From sequence record MN850580.1: a DNA stretch of 64,000 bases; one strand, 5' to 3'. The translations under genes were made by a program, and so were the position numbers. Positions 27,363-39,485 of the stretch are shown piece after piece (position 1 is the first letter of the stretch; every line of letters starts with the position of its first letter). The DNA is from Escherichia phage momo. The notes beneath the pieces are model-generated. The model made no database searches. It was not told the DNA's origin and saw only the letters and a program-made list of their open reading frames with translations.

Positions 27363-28148
27363 TTAGTTCTTTGCGTCTAAGAAGGTTACTTCCGGTGAAG
27401 AGAAAACCGTCTCGATATCCTCATCATTTCTTGCATAGATGTAAGCATCTGCATCACTGCCAAATGTTACTGCAATTCTGTGATTGCTCTTCGACAGGTG
27501 GGTAACTAGAGCGTTACTTAGAGACATCTTCTCAACCGGAGGGTTACTTTGATGTATCTTACCTTTTCTTCGTCTGAAGAGGGTAACTGTATCATCTGTG
27601 AACATTACTACACCTGCAAAGTATTCTGGTTCACAGTAGTTATTCCAACCTGAGCGTAACTTGTGGTACATCTCTCCTTCGTAGACATACAGATAAACAT
27701 CTACACTCTTCATCACCTGATTAATGATAACTGTGACGGCTTGAGGGTCTAGCCCACCGATACCTGCACCAATCATAGGTAGACCAACTTTCTTCAACTG
27801 ATTGACTTCACAGTATCTGTTAAGCTGTTTCAAAGATGATTCTAAAGCACTGTATCGGGCATCTTTACCAGTCTTAAGCTGAGTGTAAAGGTTAGCTATT
27901 CGACCTTGTTTTAAACGTGCTACAGAGAAATTACCCAGTAAATTTTCACAGGGTTTGTGTCCTATACCACCTGCATATAGATAAACTTCTGTATCGGTCT
28001 CATATGCTTTTGGGTAAAGTTTAGAAATCTTGTCAGCGATACCTGCACCCATTAAATTCATACAGTTGCAACCGTGACCGATGATGTCAAACTTACCTTT
28101 ATCAAATGCGGCAAAGATATCACCATTGATTATTTTTACAATACCCAT
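27363..28148 (-). CDS. putative macro-domain-like protein (ADP-ribose binding/processing) with C-terminal extension
   Basis: N-terminal INGDIF...DIIGHGCNCMNLMGAGIA resembles the macro-domain N(A)AN and GGGV(A) motifs; assignment tentative. Confidence 0.35.
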   Translation of the reverse strand: MGIVKIINGDIFAAFDKGKFDIIGHGCNCMNLMGAGIADKISKLYPKAYETDTEVYLYAGGIGHKPCENLLGNFSVARLKQGRIANLYTQLKTGKDARYSALESSLKQLNRYCEVNQLKKVGLPMIGAGIGGLDPQAVTVIINQVMKSVDVYLYVYEGEMYHKLRSGWNNYCEPEYFAGVVMFTDDTVTLFRRRKGKIHQSNPPVEKMSLSNALVTHLSKSNHRIAVTFGSDADAYIYARNDEDIETVFSSPEVTFLDAKN

Positions 28149-30474: not shown

Positions 30475-31170
30475 TCAATGTTTAACTAACATGGTTTTGA
30501 TGTGTGGAAGGATTCTGTTCACCTTCTGCACATTCTTCTCTGTATCTTCTATAAAACATACTATATTAAAGTAAGGTAGAATGCAAGACTGAATCATCCT
30601 CACTTTCAAACTTTCTGCACTTATAGAGTTAGTCCCAAAACCACGCATAAAAAGCATGTAGTCATGCTCTGTGTTATGCCTTAAAAACATCTCAGTAGGT
30701 ATTCTCTGAGATTCGCCTCTCGCTGTCAAGAGTCCAACGGCAGCATGATTAGCAATTGCATCAATGATATTGAAAACATACGTTGGTTTTGCTCTTACAG
30801 AGTCAAGAAGATTAGTGTACTGTGAAAATGAACCATCAGTCAGTTCCGTTGAACAATCTTCGTGATTAAAATTTGTAAGAACACCATCAATATCTGCTAA
30901 GATGAGATTCCCTTTTTCTATAAGGTCTTTATTGACTATGACTAAACTATCACGTTTTACACCTATGGATTGTCCAGTCTTTTTGTCCACAACGTTCACA
31001 ATTGGTTCTGATGTGTGGAACTCTTCAAGTGAACATACAACTTCTCTTGCGGTGTCTTCAAAATCCCTGCACTGTTCTGGAGTCCATACACAGGAGTCAA
31101 GACCTAACTCATGAGGATGTAAGTCATAAGCGTGGCACAATACTTCATCAGACTTTCTTAATTTTTTCAT
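30475..31170 (-). CDS. putative HAD-superfamily phosphatase (nucleotidase-like)
   Basis: Motif I-like LILADIDGVLT, LLTARGES, FIEDTEKN; N-terminal extension unusual. Confidence 0.35.
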   Translation of the reverse strand: MKKLRKSDEVLCHAYDLHPHELGLDSCVWTPEQCRDFEDTAREVVCSLEEFHTSEPIVNVVDKKTGQSIGVKRDSLVIVNKDLIEKGNLILADIDGVLTNFNHEDCSTELTDGSFSQYTNLLDSVRAKPTYVFNIIDAIANHAAVGLLTARGESQRIPTEMFLRHNTEHDYMLFMRGFGTNSISAESLKVRMIQSCILPYFNIVCFIEDTEKNVQKVNRILPHIKTMLVKH

Positions 31171-35352: not shown

Positions 35353-35538
35353 AATACTTTCCTCTTAGTTTACTGTTAAATTACTTATTAAACATTTTAC
35401 CAGAACCACCACAAATAGGGCAACAACCTGCTCTTGTGTACCCTTCCCCGTTGCAGTAATCACACTTCTTGTGCTCTGCATAGTACTTGCAAAGAAGGTA
35501 AACAAATACTGCTACACTACCAAGTGACAGTAAAATTT

Positions 35539-35874
35539 CTATCCAATATGCTTGCATGACTCACCTCTCATATTCTTGTAAAGGATAAAGCTTCTGTCAT
35601 GGACGATACTTGTAGACACTGCAAAGTTACTTTCAAGCATCTGTTTGTTTGGATTGTAGAAGCTTTCTTTAAACTCGTCAAGTGCAAATTGGTGATGTTG
35701 TGGAAGACCTTTTACACAGATTTTTATTGTGATTGCTGCTGCAATCTTGCCAGTCAGTTCTTCTTTAGCTGCTACTAAAATTTTGTTAAGGAACTTTTTA
35801 CCATCTTCAGGTTGCTTAATGTTCTCCCAACGTTCTTCTAGGACAACGTTAATGTTCATTTCTTTGATTTTCAT
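35539..35874 (-). CDS. hypothetical protein
   Basis: 111-aa ORF. Confidence 0.4.
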   Translation of the reverse strand: MKIKEMNINVVLEERWENIKQPEDGKKFLNKILVAAKEELTGKIAAAITIKICVKGLPQHHQFALDEFKESFYNPNKQMLESNFAVSTSIVHDRSFILYKNMRGESCKHIG

Positions 35875-35889
35875 AATCTTCTCCAGAAA

Positions 35890-35912
35890 TTAAAAAGGCT
35901 CCCGTAGGAGCC
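35890..35912 (-). terminator. rho-independent terminator after NAMPT-like gene
   Basis: GGCTCC-TACG-GGAGCC followed by TTTTTAATTT. Confidence 0.55.
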
Positions 35913-35927
35913 TCTTATCATATACTT

Positions 35928-37709
35928 TTAAAGCTGCTTGTCAATATTATTTCGAATATCTCCAAGAGTTGTATAACCGAACTGCTCAGAGTCGCTAAAG
36001 ACTAAACGTAAAGCACAAGCTTGGTGGTCAAGTACATCTGCAAAACTCTGGAATCCATAGCCATCTACAGCTTTCAGCTTATCACCATCCCACATAGGTG
36101 CTACACCACCAAAGGCAGATTTCTTAACACCACTATCTGTTTTAGGGTCTTTTGCAAGCATAATCTCTTTACCACCAATGCTTGCAAGAGTTGCTTTGAC
36201 AGCAAATGCGAAGGTGTCACGAGTCATGTACTGGTAAGTGTAAGAGCCTACACCAAACACTACGTTAGAGCTTGCAAAACCCATTTCATACAGACGCTTC
36301 AGGATTTCGTTTGCACGTTCCAGCGTGATAGAGTCACCATAGATAAGGCCGATGTGCTCATCCAGTACCTTAAACCCTTTAGAGTTAATAGTCCCTCCGA
36401 AGATGTTGTACAGGGTCTTAATAGCTCCATCAATCTCAGCTACAGGACGTGTTACAACGTTTGCAGAACCAACCATATAAGCGTTTTTCAACAGCACTGT
36501 ATCAGCAACTTCAAAGTCTTCTCTGTCAACAACCATTTCGTAGCCTTCTGACAGTAGCCATCCAGCAATACCATAATTGATGTTTTCAAGCTTCATGTTC
36601 AGAACAGCATTCAACATTGTGTCGCTGGCTTCAAGCTTGCTTAAGTGTTTGTAATAAGCCTTTTTAGCACATTCTAAGTGGATTGCTTTATAACCTGTGA
36701 CAATATGTACAGGGTCTCCAGAGTCAGGACGAATTACCAGTTTGCCATCACGTTCCATAATTTCTTTACGAAGTGCTGGTAAAATTTCTGACACAGTTCT
36801 CCAGAAGTTATAAGTGTCTGAAACAACACTTGCAATACCAGTTGGGTAAGTTTCTGTTAAGAAACGACGGAAGGTTTGTAACTCACCTTTAAAGCGTCTT
36901 TCTTCTTCAATCAACTCATTACCACCTTCCCAAGCAATGTTTGCACACATTACAGAGTGCTCAGTGGCTGGTACAGAGCTACCAATATCAGAGATTGGGT
37001 AGGACTGTCCATAGATTCGTTTAGCCGTATACACAGCAGGGAAGCTATCAGTTCCTTTAAAGCTGGTTAAGTGGCCTACAGCGTTAAATGCGTCATCAGT
37101 AAAGCCGGACATACCACGCATAGCAAAGTCATGGCACTGATAAGGCAAATGCAAGTCGTTGTCACAAGTAAGGTCAGCCCACTTCTTACAGATACGTTTG
37201 TAGTGCAATGCAATAGTTGCAATGGTACAAGCCTTCCAAATCTCAGCAGAGAAAGCATCTTCCAGATACCCCGCTACCCAATGGAAGCCTGAAACAGTGT
37301 TCTGGAAGACAATCATTGGGACGCGCATAGGGACAACTGTACCTTCTTCTACAGCGTATACTTCAACTGGTAGATAACCTAAGTCGTGAAGTGCTTCCCA
37401 GTGCTCTCGACCGATAGCATCTTTACCCAGAACACCATTCATGACTTCTAAGATTTCATCAATGGCTTCTTTTTTATCACGTTCAAAGAAAGTGGCGTTC
37501 CAGTGGTCTATCAAGTAATCTTTAACGAAACGTTGAATACCAAAAGCCACTACACCGTCAATTGCCAAAGGGCTGTTAAACCATTTATCACTACGTGGTG
37601 TCAGGTTCAACATAAGATATTGCGTAGCATCTGGATACTGATATATATGTGATGCCTTGTAAGCATCTGCATTAAGACCTGCTGGTACTGCGTAAAGTGA
37701 TTTAGTCAT
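35928..37709 (-). CDS. nicotinamide phosphoribosyltransferase (NAMPT/NadV) family protein; candidate Namat-like enzyme
   Basis: AYKASHIYQYP, HDFAMRG, LTSFKGTD, PATEHS, RPDSGDP match NAMPT motifs as recalled; 593 aa. Confidence 0.75.
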   Translation of the reverse strand: MTKSLYAVPAGLNADAYKASHIYQYPDATQYLMLNLTPRSDKWFNSPLAIDGVVAFGIQRFVKDYLIDHWNATFFERDKKEAIDEILEVMNGVLGKDAIGREHWEALHDLGYLPVEVYAVEEGTVVPMRVPMIVFQNTVSGFHWVAGYLEDAFSAEIWKACTIATIALHYKRICKKWADLTCDNDLHLPYQCHDFAMRGMSGFTDDAFNAVGHLTSFKGTDSFPAVYTAKRIYGQSYPISDIGSSVPATEHSVMCANIAWEGGNELIEEERRFKGELQTFRRFLTETYPTGIASVVSDTYNFWRTVSEILPALRKEIMERDGKLVIRPDSGDPVHIVTGYKAIHLECAKKAYYKHLSKLEASDTMLNAVLNMKLENINYGIAGWLLSEGYEMVVDREDFEVADTVLLKNAYMVGSANVVTRPVAEIDGAIKTLYNIFGGTINSKGFKVLDEHIGLIYGDSITLERANEILKRLYEMGFASSNVVFGVGSYTYQYMTRDTFAFAVKATLASIGGKEIMLAKDPKTDSGVKKSAFGGVAPMWDGDKLKAVDGYGFQSFADVLDHQACALRLVFSDSEQFGYTTLGDIRNNIDKQL

Positions 37710-37754
37710 CTTTTAATCTCTCTCAAAGTGGGGCTTTCAAGCCCCTATAAAGTT

Positions 37755-38651
37755 TCAATCAATGGTTGCTACAGTAACTTGGGCGTAATGTGTTAAGCCA
37801 CGGTCTTTAGCTTCACCTAAAGTGTTTGTAGTGTAGATATGGTCAATACCGTTGTCAAGTAAGTTTTCAACACCTTTAGAGAAAATACCATGAGTTACAT
37901 AGAGTTCCACACGTTTTGCACCTGCTTCACGTAGGTGTTTAGCTGCCTCTACGAAGGTTCGACCACCATCACAGATATCATCAAGAATCATGACAGTTTT
38001 ATCGGTCAAATCAACATCGTCAAGGATTCGCATACCAGTGATTTCTCCAGTCTTAAGATTGCGCACCTTAGACATTGTGATATACGGTTTATCCACCTCT
38101 TTAGCGGTATCTTCAGTCTTCTTAGCTGCACCTGCATCTGGGGCTACCAAGAAATCAATGCGTGGGTCACTTGCAAAGTGTACTGCCACATCTTTTTGCT
38201 TCATGCTTTGAAAGCACTTAAATAAGTTTTCTGCAACATTACTGTGAGGGTCAAGAGCACATACTGCATCAAAACCCATTGCATTAACTAGGTTGGCAAA
38301 GACTTTCAGTGCTGCTGCATCACCTTTGAACATGTGGCGGTCATATCGAGCATTTGGTAAGAACCCGAAAACAACGGTTTTCATCGCTGATTTCTGGGGA
38401 ACAAGACTGTCAACGGCATCCTTAGCCAAAGCTAATGCAAACAGTGTATCTTTGTCATATCCCTGTACAGTAATTATAACATTATCAATCTTACCAGCAT
38501 TACGCTCAGTAAACTTAACAAAATCTTCAGAGAAGTTTCCACCAATTTCTCCAGATGGGAATTGAATGATATTAAATTTTTCTGTGTGGAAGAATTTCTC
38601 TTGAGCGGTGACGACGGCTTCAATAACAGTTTTCATAGTTTTCTCTCTCAA
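37755..38651 (-). CDS. ribose-phosphate pyrophosphokinase (Prs) family protein; candidate Adps-like enzyme
   Basis: LDPHSNVAENLF, VAPDAGAAKK and ILDDICDGGRTFVEAAKHLREAGAKRVELYVTHGIFS match Prs PRPP-binding region. Confidence 0.75.
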   Translation of the reverse strand: MREKTMKTVIEAVVTAQEKFFHTEKFNIIQFPSGEIGGNFSEDFVKFTERNAGKIDNVIITVQGYDKDTLFALALAKDAVDSLVPQKSAMKTVVFGFLPNARYDRHMFKGDAAALKVFANLVNAMGFDAVCALDPHSNVAENLFKCFQSMKQKDVAVHFASDPRIDFLVAPDAGAAKKTEDTAKEVDKPYITMSKVRNLKTGEITGMRILDDVDLTDKTVMILDDICDGGRTFVEAAKHLREAGAKRVELYVTHGIFSKGVENLLDNGIDHIYTTNTLGEAKDRGLTHYAQVTVATID

Positions 38652-38926
38652 TCAAAAGTTACGTTTGTTACTGCCATTGCAGATTTGCATTTTGCAGGGT
38701 CTACAACGTGATAAAGTACACTACAGTTACCTGTGCTGTCTGGTACAGGCTTTACCCATTGCTGCTTTATATTTGGCTCCCCTAAGTCTTTGTAAGAGCC
38801 ATCTGTAAAGTTGTTTACCATCTCAAGTGCAATTGGTTCTGGAACATGCCCACGTATCATGTACATTTCACAACCATTACCGCCTTCACTGACTAATGGT
38901 AAAATCTCCCACTTCTCTTTAGCCAT
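38648..38926 (-). CDS. hypothetical protein
   Basis: 92-aa ORF. Confidence 0.4.
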   Translation of the reverse strand: MAKEKWEILPLVSEGGNGCEMYMIRGHVPEPIALEMVNNFTDGSYKDLGEPNIKQQWVKPVPDSTGNCSVLYHVVDPAKCKSAMAVTNVTFD

Positions 38927-39434
38927 TGTAAGTTGCCCTATAAACTGTCTCGAACTTCAACAGGAGAGATATTGCCAAATCTGTATAGTTGTTGTCAAGC
39001 ACATCTGGCATATTATTTTTGATATATTTCTCTTGCTCTTCATAGGTCATCTTAGGTGTGCTTAGAAGGTTATCTCCCTGCTTCTGGTTATCAAGTTTAG
39101 TCTGGATAAACCAGTTTGCACAGTGATGCTCACCACCCTTTGTAACAGGTTTGTGGTGGCCTAATGTGAAGGATTGACTACCTGTGTATCTACAAAGCTT
39201 ATTGAGCACTGCAATGGTGTTCTTCACAACAAAACATTCATACAGGTTATCTATAGTGTAGTGTGGGTAATAACGGAATAGTACTCTTTCACGAGTACTT
39301 TCACGATTCCAGAGAATCATGTGATTGGAGTTTGAGGGGTCGTATTGGTGGGAGTCAATGAACTCTTGACGTTCCTCAAAGCTAAGTCTTAACACTGACA
39401 TTGCAGCAGAACGTTTTAGGTTTGACAGATACAT
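38919..39434 (-). CDS. putative HNH endonuclease
   Basis: GHHKPVTKGGEHHCANW...N motif typical of HNH nucleases. Confidence 0.5.
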   Translation of the reverse strand: MYLSNLKRSAAMSVLRLSFEERQEFIDSHQYDPSNSNHMILWNRESTRERVLFRYYPHYTIDNLYECFVVKNTIAVLNKLCRYTGSQSFTLGHHKPVTKGGEHHCANWFIQTKLDNQKQGDNLLSTPKMTYEEQEKYIKNNMPDVLDNNYTDLAISLLLKFETVYRATYNG

Positions 39435-39485
39435 ATCATCTCCAAAATAAAAAGGGAACTGTAAAGGTTCCCTTATAGTATCTGT

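What the first reader, a model, noticed from the sequence alone, without database searches (positions are those of the whole stretch)
35928..38651. Adjacent PRPP-synthetase-like and NAMPT-like genes: candidate NAD+ reconstitution (NARP1-type) counter-defence module
Two co-oriented genes separated by 45 bp. The upstream one (298 aa) carries the Prs PRPP-binding signature (ILDDICDGGRTF...THGIFS, LDPHSNVAENLF). The downstream one (593 aa) carries NAMPT motifs (AYKASHIYQYP, HDFAMRG, FKGTD, PATEHS, RPDSGDP). From memory of recent literature, a phage pair of a Prs homolog (Adps) and a NAMPT homolog (Namat) rebuilds NAD+ from ADP-ribose and nicotinamide to counter NAD-depleting defences such as Thoeris or DSR. 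No NMNAT partner is visible nearby, which favours that pathway over simple salvage. A macro-domain-like gene at 27363-28148 may be related.
Basis: partly seen in the sequence, partly recalled or inferred. Interest (0 to 1): 0.8.

Follow-up and report, generated by a model that had tools for sequence, protein, structure and literature searches.

The report
Known phage NAD+ rebuilding gene pair

Summary
Two co-oriented minus-strand genes lie 45 bp apart. One is a Prs-like gene at 37755-38636 (293 aa from its ATG; the mechanical ORF of 298 aa starts at a TTG). The other is a NAMPT-like gene at 35928-37709 (593 aa). All the quoted motifs are present.

The window is a Felixounavirus. The two proteins are 99% (291/293) and 98% (579/593) identical to bas63_0079 and bas63_0080 of Escherichia phage JohannRWettstein (Bas63). 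NARP1 (Adps + Namat) was discovered in that operon by deletion, NAD+ measurement and detection of ADPR-PP.

Every catalytic residue and "selectivity clamp" residue tested is identical to Bas63. These include the Namat signature GSYTYQYMTRD, the K42-W43 loop and Adps K190. No NMNAT or Nudix signature occurs anywhere in the window.

Three side findings are less well covered in the literature:
- The macro-domain gene at 27363-28148 is a two-domain, Poa1p-like homologue of the recently described NARP1-associated ADPR-1''-phosphate phosphatase Adpp. It keeps both residues that were mutated in that study, but it lies 7.8 kb from the operon.
- No Escherichia or Salmonella phage appears in that study's table of Adpp genes.
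- Namat carries an ~85-aa folded insertion found only in Ounavirinae-like phages.

The parts
37755..38636 (-). adps: ADP-ribose pyrophosphate (ADPR-PP) synthetase, a Prs-family enzyme of 293 aa. The mechanical ORF extends to a TTG at 38651.
   Evidence: It is 291/293 identical to bas63_0079. TIGR01251 scores 138.8 bits (cut-off 113), but every equivalog-level Prs model falls far below its cut-off. It matches phrog_619 at 2e-99. K190 aligns with K192 of Vibrio phage Gary Adps, which was mutated in the 2026 preprint. GAGAGAG precedes the ATG.
37710..37754 (-). 45-bp spacer between adps and namat. It holds a GC-rich hairpin, GGGGCTTGAAAGCCCC (37730-37745), and a GAGAGAG ribosome-binding site (37718-37724).
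   Evidence: Read directly from the sequence. The hairpin was not called as a terminator by the scan. Its role was not tested; transcript stabilisation or attenuation are possibilities.
35928..37709 (-). namat: nicotinamide ADP-ribose transferase, a NAMPT-family enzyme of 593 aa.
   Evidence: It is 579/593 identical to bas63_0080. The best solved relatives are the SpbetaL1 Namat crystal structures 9w5w/9w5x: sequence E 5e-129, Foldseek E 2e-54 with TM 0.95 on the target. The AF2 model has pLDDT 92.6. All 26 key residues are identical to Bas63.
36216..36248 (-). Codons for the Namat 'selectivity clamp helix' signature G488-S-Y-T-Y-Q-Y-M-T-R-D498.
   Evidence: [quoted passage not shown] The mapping is.
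36429..36692 (-). Codons for the ~85-aa insertion in Namat (residues ~340-427), absent from SpbetaL1 Namat and from NAMPT.
   Evidence: The gap shows in the HMMER alignment to 9w5w and in alignment A2. AF2 predicts a compact alpha/beta subdomain there with pLDDT above 90. tblastn finds this segment in only 253 phage records, nearly all named as Escherichia, Salmonella, Shigella or Citrobacter phages or Felixounavirus; the listed records are mostly 82-90 kb. There is no Pfam match.
35893..35916 (-). Terminator-like hairpin 12 nt downstream of the namat stop codon.
   Evidence: Found by the consensus scan: 10-bp stem followed by a T run.
38648..38926 (-). Upstream 92-aa ORF of unknown function (bas63_0078 orthologue). 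Its stop codon lies 11 nt before the adps ATG.
   Evidence: phrog_4726, unknown function. It lies in the same apparent transcription unit as adps and namat. No link to NAD+ metabolism is shown.
38919..39434 (-). Upstream 171-aa ORF (bas63_0077 orthologue), weakly HNH-like. It overlaps the 92-aa ORF by 8 nt.
   Evidence: phrog_3500; weak match to an HNH endonuclease PHROG at 2.7e-4. A terminator-like hairpin at 39452-39474 (-) lies just upstream.
27363..28148 (-). Two-domain macro protein (261 aa, bas63_0095 orthologue). It is a candidate unlinked ADPR-1''-phosphate phosphatase (Adpp-like), 7.8 kb downstream of namat on the same strand. It is not shown to belong to the module.
   Evidence: Pfam Macro 1.1e-7; phrog_335 7.6e-113; 253/261 identical to bas63_0095. 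It is 27-29% identical to Adpp of phages Gary and phiAbaA1 by BLASTP (E 2e-13 and 2e-18), and 25-36% identical to ten Adpp sequences in the MAFFT alignment. H25 and N28 correspond to Gary Adpp H24 and N27. The AF2 model has pLDDT 89.9. Foldseek hits are TARG1, DarG and Poa1p.

Best explanation
The two genes are the NARP1 counter-defence pathway of a Felixounavirus.

Many bacterial defence systems (SIR2-HerA, type I Thoeris, DSR1/2, SEFIR and others) cleave NAD+ into ADP-ribose and nicotinamide. Adps, a divergent member of the PRPP-synthetase family, uses ATP to add a pyrophosphate to the terminal ribose of ADP-ribose, which gives ADPR-PP. Namat, a NAMPT-family enzyme, has an extra adenine-binding 'selectivity clamp'. 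It replaces that pyrophosphate with nicotinamide and so regenerates NAD+ in one step, without NMN and without an NMN adenylyltransferase. The phage thereby recycles the defence system's own cleavage products and keeps replicating.

What is shown here: gene structure, family membership, near-identity to the Bas63 prototype, and conservation of every residue tested. What is shown in the literature for the 98-99% identical Bas63 proteins: the anti-defence phenotype, independence from host PncC and NadR, and ADPR-PP in vivo. What is inferred by homology: the individual enzyme reactions, which were measured in vitro on the SpbetaL1, Gary, DyoEdafos and Paenibacillus homologues, not on Bas63.
For: 1. 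Identity to the prototype. The window region is 96-98.5% identical in DNA to Felixounaviruses, including JohannRWettstein/Bas63. The proteins are 291/293 and 579/593 identical to bas63_0079 and bas63_0080.

2. Experiments on Bas63 (bioRxiv 10.1101/2024.02.11.579819). Deleting genes 79-80 gave about 20-fold fewer plaques on SIR2-HerA. NAD+ was partly maintained. [quoted passage not shown] ADPR-PP (m/z 720.010) was seen only with the wild-type phage plus the defence system.

3. Namat residues. The NAM/NMN-site residues D15, Y17, F195, R198, D221, A248, H251, R327, D329, G458 and D459 are present. So are the clamp helix G488-SYTYQYMTRD-498 and the clamp loop K42-W43. All are identical to Bas63, and none of the 14 substitutions touches them.

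4. Structure. The AF2 model (pLDDT 92.6) matches the Namat crystal structures best: E 2e-54, ahead of HdNadV at 7e-47 and human NAMPT at 5e-39.

5. Adps. It belongs to the Prs family but fails every equivalog-level Prs model (for example 101 bits against a cut-off of 297). The catalytic-loop lysine K190 is kept. It lies directly next to Namat, as do 97% of Adps-clade genes.

6. No NMNAT (HxGH) or Nudix-box motif occurs in any of the six frames of the 64-kb window. Nothing of that kind is annotated in Bas63.
Against: No experiment was done on this particular phage, and none can be done with these tools. [quoted passage not shown] The reaction chemistry for this lineage therefore rests on in-vivo metabolites plus homologues that are 37-40% identical (Gary), or for Namat about 38% (SpbetaL1, Foldseek alignment).

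Namat homologues can also make NMN from PRPP in vitro when ADPR-PP is absent. Some ordinary salvage activity is therefore not excluded.

The Ounavirinae Namat carries an ~85-aa insertion of unknown role that the biochemically and structurally characterised SpbetaL1 enzyme lacks.
Confidence: 0.93

Rival explanations
1. Ordinary nucleotide and NAD+ salvage, as the GenBank annotations say. In this reading the upstream enzyme is a true PRPP synthetase and the downstream one a true nicotinamide phosphoribosyltransferase that makes NMN. Host enzymes (NadR, or PncC then NadD/NadE) would convert the NMN to NAD+ and so boost NAD+ supply during infection.
For: Both proteins hit the Prs and NAMPT families. 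Relatives are annotated as 'ribose-phosphate pyrophosphokinase' and 'nicotinamide phosphoribosyltransferase' in nearly all of the 258 matching phage records. Namat can make NMN from PRPP in vitro when ADPR-PP is absent.
Against: [quoted passage not shown] The SpbetaL1 Adps gave no measurable product in the Prs-type assay, but made ADPR-PP from ADPR. Namat given both substrates made only NAD+. The protein fails every equivalog-level Prs model. The Namat-specific clamp motif is present.
Confidence: 0.04
2. A NARP2-type pathway. Here the NAMPT homologue would make NMN from PRPP, and a phage NMN adenylyltransferase/Nudix enzyme encoded elsewhere in the genome would complete NAD+ synthesis.
For: The NAMPT-family fold is shared between Namat and the NARP2 Nampt. 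About 20% of phage Namat/Nampt homologues belong to NARP2-type phages.
Against: No HxGH nucleotidyltransferase motif or Nudix box occurs in any frame of the window. No such gene is annotated in the complete Bas63 genome. An Adps gene sits immediately upstream, which defines the NARP1 clade. The clamp motif that Nampt lacks is present.
Confidence: 0.01
3. An extended, split NARP1-AP. This is an addition to the best explanation, not an alternative. The macro-domain protein at 27363-28148 would dephosphorylate ADPR-1''-phosphate, the product of RES-domain NAD+ phosphorylases such as aRES. The resulting ADPR would feed Adps, even though the macro gene is not in the operon.
For: The macro domain is homologous to the NARP1-associated Adpp proteins: E 2e-13 to 2e-18 and 27-29% identity by BLASTP, and 25-36% identity to ten Adpp sequences by MAFFT. 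It keeps H25 and N28, which correspond to H24 and N27 of Gary Adpp. Plasmids carrying alanine substitutions at those positions were built for that study, and its Fig. 3B legend says mutations in Adpp abolished anti-defence. Among solved structures Poa1p is a strong match (E 8e-9, rmsd 2.3-2.5). The catalytic Lys and Asp of TARG1/DarG are replaced by Q90 and G131. NARP1-linked Adpp sequences are scattered through this phage macro family and are not a separate clade. The order NARP1 ... macro is conserved in a distant Ounavirinae genus.
Against: The gene is 7.8 kb away, with rIIA/rIIB, a polynucleotide kinase and spanins in between. The same macro family occurs in a T4-like phage; that T4-like phages lack NARP1 is my recollection and was not checked here. 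If it is right, the family is not tied to NARP1. The window protein is as close to the T4-like homologue (38%) as to any Adpp. The Kolesnikvirus orthologue has Q in place of the histidine. No Escherichia or Salmonella phage is listed in the preprint's Table S1. The C-terminal beta-rich domain has no known function.
Confidence: 0.35

Closest known systems
NARP1 of Escherichia phage JohannRWettstein (Bas63), genes bas63_0079 (Adps) and bas63_0080 (Namat); Osterman et al., bioRxiv 10.1101/2024.02.11.579819. From memory, it was later published in Nature in 2024.
   Same: The gene order, strand, spacing and neighbours are the same (NrdG upstream; rIIA/rIIB downstream). Identity is 99% and 98% at the amino-acid level, and all functional residues tested are identical.
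   Different: There are 2 and 14 amino-acid substitutions, none at a tested functional position. The window lacks the small gene bas63_0081, which sits just downstream of namat in Bas63.
NARP1 of Bacillus phage SpbetaL1, the biochemically and structurally characterised Adps/Namat pair; PDB 9w5w and 9w5x; PMC12774641.
   Same: The two-gene arrangement and the Namat catalytic core are the same. The clamp helix motif is GSYTYQYMTRD here and GSFTYQYNTRD in SpbetaL1. The fold matches with TM 0.95 on the target.
   Different: In the clamp loop, SpbetaL1 R40 corresponds to K42 here, and the next residue, W43, is predicted to do the stacking, as the paper describes for Bas63. The window Namat is about 100 aa longer. 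It has an ~85-aa insertion after RPDSGDP and a ~15-aa insertion after PATEHSVMCAN.
NARP1-AP of Vibrio phage Gary (Adps - Adpp - Namat); bioRxiv 10.64898/2026.01.28.702374.
   Same: Adps is 40% identical and Namat 37% identical. The residues mutated in Gary are kept here: Adps K192 corresponds to K190, Namat H243 to H251, and Adpp H24/N27 to H25/N28.
   Different: In Gary the macro phosphatase lies between adps and namat and has a single domain of 158 aa. Here the macro gene is 7.8 kb downstream and has an extra C-terminal domain of about 100 aa.
NARP2 of Vibrio phage KVP40 (Nampt plus a bifunctional NMNAT/Nudix enzyme).
   Same: It uses a NAMPT-family enzyme, and its purpose is to restore NAD+ under NAD+-depleting defence.
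   Different: NARP2 starts from PRPP and needs an NMNAT. The window has an Adps instead, no NMNAT or Nudix motif, and the Namat clamp motif.
Cellular Prs (PRPP synthetase) and NAMPT/NadV.
   Same: The folds and catalytic-core residues are shared.
   Different: Adps fails all equivalog-level Prs models. Pfam detects only the C-terminal PRT half. Namat has the adenine clamp, which Nampt lacks.

Membership tests
NARP1 / Adps | Member of the PRPP-synthetase (Prs) protein family | tested here: met
   Pfam Pribosyltran 7.4e-12 and Pribosyl_synth 2.3e-10. TIGR01251 scores 138.8 bits against a cut-off of 113.
NARP1 / Adps | Belongs to the phage Adps clade, separate from cellular Prs | tested here: met
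   It is 291/293 identical to Bas63 Adps, one of the query sequences that defined the clade. All equivalog-level Prs models score far below their cut-offs. It matches phrog_619 at 2e-99. No formal phylogeny was run here.
NARP1 / Adps | Catalytic flexible-loop lysine (SpbetaL1 K162, Gary K192, B. subtilis Prs K197) | tested here: met
   K190 in MSKVRN aligns with Gary K192 and with the loop lysine of the Prs in PDB 4twb. It is identical in Bas63.
NARP1 / Adps | A Namat gene immediately adjacent (true of 97% of the clade) | tested here: met
   namat starts 45 bp downstream on the same strand.
NARP1 / Adps | ATP-dependent pyrophosphorylation of ADP-ribose to ADPR-PP, with no PRPP synthesis | not testable with these tools
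   This was shown in vitro for the SpbetaL1 homologue. ADPR-PP was detected in vivo for Bas63.
NARP1 / Namat | NAMPT-like catalytic core (NAM and NMN contacts, catalytic histidine) | tested here: met
   D15, Y17, F195, R198, D221, A248, H251, R327, D329, G458 and D459 are all present.
NARP1 / Namat | [quoted passage not shown] | tested here: met
   G488-S-Y-T-Y-Q-Y-M-T-R-D498.
NARP1 / Namat | Selectivity-clamp loop with Arg, Lys or Tyr at its third position and a stacking residue | tested here: met
   K42-W43, identical to Bas63, for which the paper describes the fourth residue as the stacking one. The geometry itself was not examined here.
NARP1 / Namat | Preference for ADPR-PP over PRPP, giving NAD+ directly | not testable with these tools
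   This was shown for SpbetaL1 Namat.
NARP1 (pathway) | Counteracts NAD+-depleting defence during infection | not testable with these tools
   This was shown for Bas63 by deleting genes 79-80. It is inferred for this phage from 98-99% identity.
NARP2 | A phage-encoded NMN adenylyltransferase/Nudix partner, and no Adps | tested here: not met
   No HxGH or Nudix-box motif occurs in six-frame translations of the window. None is annotated in Bas63. An Adps gene is present.
Canonical PRPP synthetase (Prs) | Reaches the curated equivalog score of a Prs model | tested here: not met
   NF002095 scores 113.8 against 296. NF002320 (a subfamily-level model) scores 101.4 against 297. NF002844 scores 81 against 438.
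NARP1-AP / Adpp (macro gene 27363-28148) | Poa1p-like macro domain with the His and Asn that were targeted by mutation in Gary Adpp (H24, N27) | tested here: met
   Pfam Macro 1.1e-7. H25 and N28 align with H24 and N27 and are invariant in alignment A1. Poa1p is a Foldseek hit at E 8e-9.
NARP1-AP / Adpp (macro gene 27363-28148) | Encoded within or next to the NARP1 operon | tested here: not met
   The gene lies 7.8 kb downstream of namat with unrelated genes between them. No Escherichia or Salmonella phage appears in the preprint's Table S1.
NARP1-AP / Adpp (macro gene 27363-28148) | Converts ADPR-1''-phosphate to ADPR | not testable with these tools
   This was shown only for Gary Adpp.
TARG1 / DarG-type ADP-ribosyl glycohydrolase macrodomains (macro gene) | Catalytic lysine (TARG1 K84) and aspartate (D125) | tested here: not met
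   In the HMMER alignment to 4j5r these positions are Q90 and G131. The residue numbering of TARG1 comes from my own count of the sequence. The fold is nevertheless the top Foldseek hit.

The most novel reading that the evidence does not exclude
Felixounaviruses, including the NARP1 prototype Bas63, may run a 'split' NARP1-AP. In this reading the two-domain macro protein (27363-28148, the bas63_0095 orthologue) is an unlinked ADPR-1''-phosphate phosphatase. It would let NARP1 also rebuild NAD+ after cleavage by RES-type NAD+ phosphorylases such as aRES. Its extra C-terminal beta-rich domain, and the ~85-aa Ounavirinae-specific insertion in Namat, would be lineage-specific adaptations of the pathway that nobody has studied.
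Probability: 0.3. Interest if true: 0.4.

Novelty: already known. Interest (0 to 1): 0.15.

Why it matters
The NARP1 assignment itself adds nothing new. It confirms that a reader working from raw sequence can recognise a recently discovered counter-defence module.

It has some practical value. GenBank records of this phage group still label the genes 'ribose-phosphate pyrophosphokinase' and 'nicotinamide phosphoribosyltransferase'. That mislabels a counter-defence pathway as housekeeping metabolism. The error matters when Felix O1-like phages are chosen for therapy or biocontrol against hosts with SIR2, TIR or SEFIR defences.

The side observations could matter modestly. If the unlinked macro protein is an Adpp, counting only operon-linked genes (15% of NARP1 phages) underestimates how many phages can counter aRES. 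In that case the prototype phage Bas63 would already be such a phage.

Tried and rejected
1. Ordinary Prs + NAMPT salvage: rejected, on the Bas63 delta-pncC delta-nadR result and the in-vitro data and on failure of all Prs equivalog models.

2. NARP2: rejected, because a regex scan of all six frames for the NMNAT HxGH motif, the ISSTxxR motif and the Nudix box found nothing. This is a motif-level test only. A full HMM scan of every ORF in the window was not done.

3. I looked for a solved Adps structure or a paper defining Adps-specific residues. None is in the PDB copy (the best hit is a Prs, PDB 4twb, at 1.5e-18) or in the paper library. Adps membership therefore rests on identity to Bas63, the catalytic-loop lysine and adjacency to Namat.

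4. [quoted passage not shown] Only noise came back. Foldseek searches of the whole models are dominated by the NAMPT and macro cores. No structure-prediction jobs remained to model the pieces alone.

5. I considered that the macro protein might be a DarG2- or TARG1-like eraser of DNA or protein ADP-ribosylation. I judged this less likely because the catalytic Lys and Asp are replaced. The papers I checked on phage anti-DarT factors concern NADAR or small binding proteins, not this family.

6. I checked whether the RyDEP (RyR-domain) accessory gene of some NARP1 operons applies here. The preprint does not mention Bas63 or Felix-type phages. The small neighbouring ORFs have no annotated PHROG function. 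They were not compared with RyDEP directly.


Full report
OBSERVATION. The ORF listing shows two minus-strand ORFs: 37755..38651 (298 aa, TTG start) and 35928..37709 (593 aa). They are separated by 45 bp (37710-37754).

The upstream gene most likely starts at the ATG at 38636, which gives 293 aa. That ATG follows a GAGAGAG ribosome-binding site. The TTG overlaps the stop codon of the preceding ORF. The orthologue in Bas63 is annotated from the same ATG.

Family assignments are unambiguous. The upstream protein hits Pfam Pribosyltran and Pribosyl_synth, and TIGR01251 at 1.7e-40. The downstream protein hits Pfam NAPRTase and NAMPT_N, and NF006629 at 3e-141. PHROG matches are phrog_619 at 2e-99 and phrog_448 at 4e-202.

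WHAT THE WINDOW IS. A megablast of 35500-39100 against phage genomes finds 258 records, nearly all Felix O1-like phages of Escherichia, Salmonella, Shigella and Citrobacter. The best is Escherichia phage garuso at 98.5%. Escherichia phage JohannRWettstein, which is Bas63 of the BASEL collection (genus Felixounavirus), matches at 96.3%. Its annotation places bas63_0079 ('ribose-phosphate pyrophosphokinase') and bas63_0080 ('nicotinamide phosphoribosyltransferase') at the homologous position. NrdD/NrdG lie upstream and rIIA/rIIB downstream, exactly as in the window. The window proteins are 291/293 and 579/593 identical to these two.

WHAT IS KNOWN ABOUT THAT OPERON. Osterman et al. (bioRxiv 10.1101/2024.02.11.579819) discovered NARP1 by deleting exactly these two genes from Bas63. 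Their findings were:
- The deletion mutant formed about 20-fold fewer plaques on cells with SIR2-HerA.
- Wild-type phage partly maintained NAD+.
- ADPR-pyrophosphate (m/z 720.010) and its cyclic-phosphate breakdown product appeared only with wild-type phage plus the defence system.

The Bas63 protein purified poorly, so the reactions were demonstrated with the SpbetaL1 homologues. Adps converts ADPR + ATP to ADPR-PP and gave no product in the Prs-type assay. Namat converts ADPR-PP + nicotinamide to NAD+ and prefers ADPR-PP over PRPP.

The pathway neutralised type I Thoeris, DSR1, DSR2, SEFIR and SIR2-HerA. It was found in 4.3% of sequenced phages, and 97% of Adps-clade genes lie next to a Namat gene.

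RESIDUE-LEVEL TESTS. The crystal-structure paper on SpbetaL1 Namat (PMC12774641) defines a conserved NAMPT-like core. It also defines a Namat-specific adenine 'selectivity clamp', made of a helix motif GSX-Phi-X-Phi-X-Phi-TRD and a variable loop.

I mapped these positions through the HMMER alignment to PDB 9w5w. The core residues D15, Y17, F195, R198, D221, A248, H251, R327, D329, G458 and D459 are all present. The clamp helix is G488-SYTYQYMTRD-498. The clamp loop has K42-W43, the arrangement the paper describes for Bas63. All 26 positions are identical between the window and Bas63. None of the 14 Namat substitutions or the 2 Adps substitutions touches them.

Adps K190 aligns with K192 of Vibrio phage Gary Adps, the residue mutated in the 2026 preprint. 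Adps passes only the broad Prs-family model and fails every equivalog-level Prs model by a wide margin.

An AlphaFold2 model of the window Namat (pLDDT 92.6) matches the Namat crystal structures best. Foldseek gives E 2e-54 with TM 0.95 on the target, ahead of HdNadV and mammalian NAMPT.

RIVALS. Plain Prs + NAMPT salvage is contradicted by the Bas63 host-knockout experiment, by the in-vitro data and by the clamp motif.

NARP2 requires an NMN adenylyltransferase. A six-frame scan of the whole window for the HxGH and ISSTxxR nucleotidyltransferase motifs and the Nudix box found nothing. The complete Bas63 annotation has no such gene.

The remaining uncertainty is that no enzyme of this lineage has been assayed in vitro.

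SURROUNDINGS. Terminator-like hairpins lie at 39452-39474 and at 35893-35916, the latter 12 nt after the namat stop codon. They bracket an apparent four-gene unit. The unit holds a 171-aa weakly HNH-like ORF, a 92-aa ORF of unknown function whose stop codon is 11 nt from the adps start, then adps and namat. The 45-bp adps-namat spacer contains a GC-rich hairpin, GGGGCTTGAAAGCCCC, and a second GAGAGAG ribosome-binding site. None of the small neighbours has a known function.

THE MACRO-DOMAIN GENE. According to that preprint:
- The defence protein aRES cleaves NAD+ to nicotinamide and ADPR-1''-phosphate, which Adps cannot use.
- About 15% of NARP1 phages carry a Poa1p-like macro-domain phosphatase (Adpp) in the operon that restores ADPR. 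The authors call this NARP1-AP.

The window gene 27363-28148 encodes a 261-aa protein that is 253/261 identical to bas63_0095, annotated 'putative phosphatase'. It matches Pfam Macro at 1.1e-7 and phrog_335 at 7.6e-113. Its N-terminal ~160 residues align over their full length with Adpp proteins from the preprint's Table S1. Identity is 27-29% by BLASTP with E 2e-13 to 2e-18, and 25-36% to ten Adpp sequences in the MAFFT alignment.

H25 and N28 correspond to H24 and N27 of Gary Adpp. Plasmids with alanine substitutions at those two positions are listed in the preprint's supplement, and the Fig. 3B legend states that mutations in Adpp abolish anti-defence. Both residues are invariant among 29 homologues.

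The AF2 model (pLDDT 89.9) shows a macro domain plus a separate beta-rich C-terminal domain (residues ~175-255). Foldseek ranks TARG1 at 3e-10, the DarG macrodomain at 1e-9 and Poa1p at 8e-9. However, the catalytic lysine and aspartate of TARG1 align with Q90 and G131. The HxCNC motif is of the Poa1p/Adpp type.

A rough neighbour-joining tree shows the NARP1-linked Adpp sequences scattered in at least four groups across this phage macro family. They are interleaved with the window's clade and with the homologue from a T4-like phage. That T4-like phages lack NARP1 is my recollection and was not checked here.

The gene order adps-namat ... rIIA-rIIB ... polynucleotide kinase ... spanin ... macro is kept in the distant Ounavirinae genus Kolesnikvirus. 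In that genus, though, the histidine is replaced by glutamine.

No Escherichia or Salmonella phage is listed in the preprint's Table S1. So the gene is a credible candidate for an unlinked Adpp, at roughly 0.3-0.35. The macro family is apparently broader than NARP1, the gene is not in the operon, and nothing here tests activity.

THE NAMAT INSERTION. Window Namat is about 100 aa longer than SpbetaL1 Namat. Most of the difference is an ~85-aa segment (residues ~340-427) between the RPDSGDP strand and the following helix. AF2 predicts it as a compact alpha/beta subdomain with pLDDT above 90.

tblastn finds the segment in only 253 phage records, nearly all named as Escherichia, Salmonella, Shigella or Citrobacter phages or Felixounavirus. 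The listed records are mostly 82-90 kb, and identity falls to about 49%. The protein search also found long-form Namat homologues (about 590-610 aa), some in phages named as Yersinia, Pectobacterium or Salmonella phages, on contigs of roughly 85-92 kb. Gary Namat has a shorter insertion at the same site. The segment has no Pfam match, and the structure paper's text does not discuss it. Its role is unknown.

COMPARISON AND NOVELTY. The pair is a member of NARP1 by every defining feature that can be tested in silico, and it is orthologous to the prototype. It differs from SpbetaL1 NARP1 in the clamp-loop solution and the Namat insertions. It differs from Gary NARP1-AP in lacking an operon-encoded phosphatase. 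It differs from NARP2 in having Adps and no NMNAT.

Novelty: already known. Interest: low (0.15). The residual interest lies in the candidate split NARP1-AP and in the uncharacterised insertion and C-terminal domain.

Noticed in passing
window 27363-28148 (-): This two-domain macro protein is the bas63_0095 orthologue. Its N-terminal domain is Poa1p/Adpp-like, with an HGCNC motif and the TARG1 catalytic Lys and Asp replaced by Q90 and G131. Its C-terminal domain (residues ~175-255) is beta-rich and has no detectable family. The two-domain form is seen in the Ounavirinae phages examined (Felixounavirus, Kolesnikvirus) and in unnamed metagenomic homologues down to about 33% identity.
   Followed up: partly
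window 36429-36692 (-), Namat residues ~340-427: An ~85-aa insertion is confidently predicted as a compact alpha/beta subdomain. It is absent from SpbetaL1 Namat and from NAMPT. It is restricted to 253 phage records, mostly phages of Escherichia, Salmonella, Shigella and Citrobacter. A second insertion of about 15 aa follows PATEHSVMCAN (residues ~258-277). The function of both is unknown.
   Followed up: partly
window 37730-37745 (-): A perfect 6-bp GC-rich hairpin, GGGGCTTGAAAGCCCC, sits in the 45-bp spacer between adps and namat, followed by a GAGAGAG ribosome-binding site. The scan did not call it a terminator. It might set the relative expression or stability of the two cistrons.
   Followed up: no
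window 38648-39434 (-): Two small ORFs lie in the same apparent transcription unit as adps and namat and are tightly packed with them: the two ORFs overlap by 8 nt, and there is an 11-nt gap to the adps ATG. One is 171 aa and weakly HNH-like (phrog_3500). The other is 92 aa and of unknown function (phrog_4726). Whether they act with NARP1 is unknown.
   Followed up: partly
window 35875-35927, compared with L001 6381-6725: Bas63 has an extra 115-aa hypothetical gene (bas63_0081) immediately downstream of namat, and the window lacks it. Other relatives (phages LinBro and ekra) carry an HNH homing endonuclease within the matched region (35500-39100 equivalent), so this region is an indel hot spot.
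   Followed up: no
proteins P0099-P0150: Namat/NadV homologues of 496 aa and 45-48% identity are encoded on megabase-sized chromosomal contigs of Klebsiella, Cronobacter, Kluyvera, Phytobacter and Kosakonia. They could be cellular NadV or the bacterial NARP1 copies mentioned in PMC12774641. Their neighbours were not examined.
   Followed up: no
window 30475-31170 (-): A 231-aa protein annotated 'polynucleotide kinase' (phrog_3970) has no Pfam hit at E 0.01. It lies between NARP1 and the macro gene. Together with a possible ADPR-1''-phosphate phosphatase, this is reminiscent of RNA-repair chemistry. That link is only a thought and was not tested.
   Followed up: no
L006 11998-12780 (Erwinia phage vEam_PM_21, Kolesnikvirus): The orthologous two-domain macro protein in this distant Ounavirinae genus has glutamine (GQGCNC) in place of the histidine that corresponds to the H24 position mutated in Gary Adpp. 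The residue may therefore not be essential in this clade, or that copy may have a different or lost activity.
   Followed up: no
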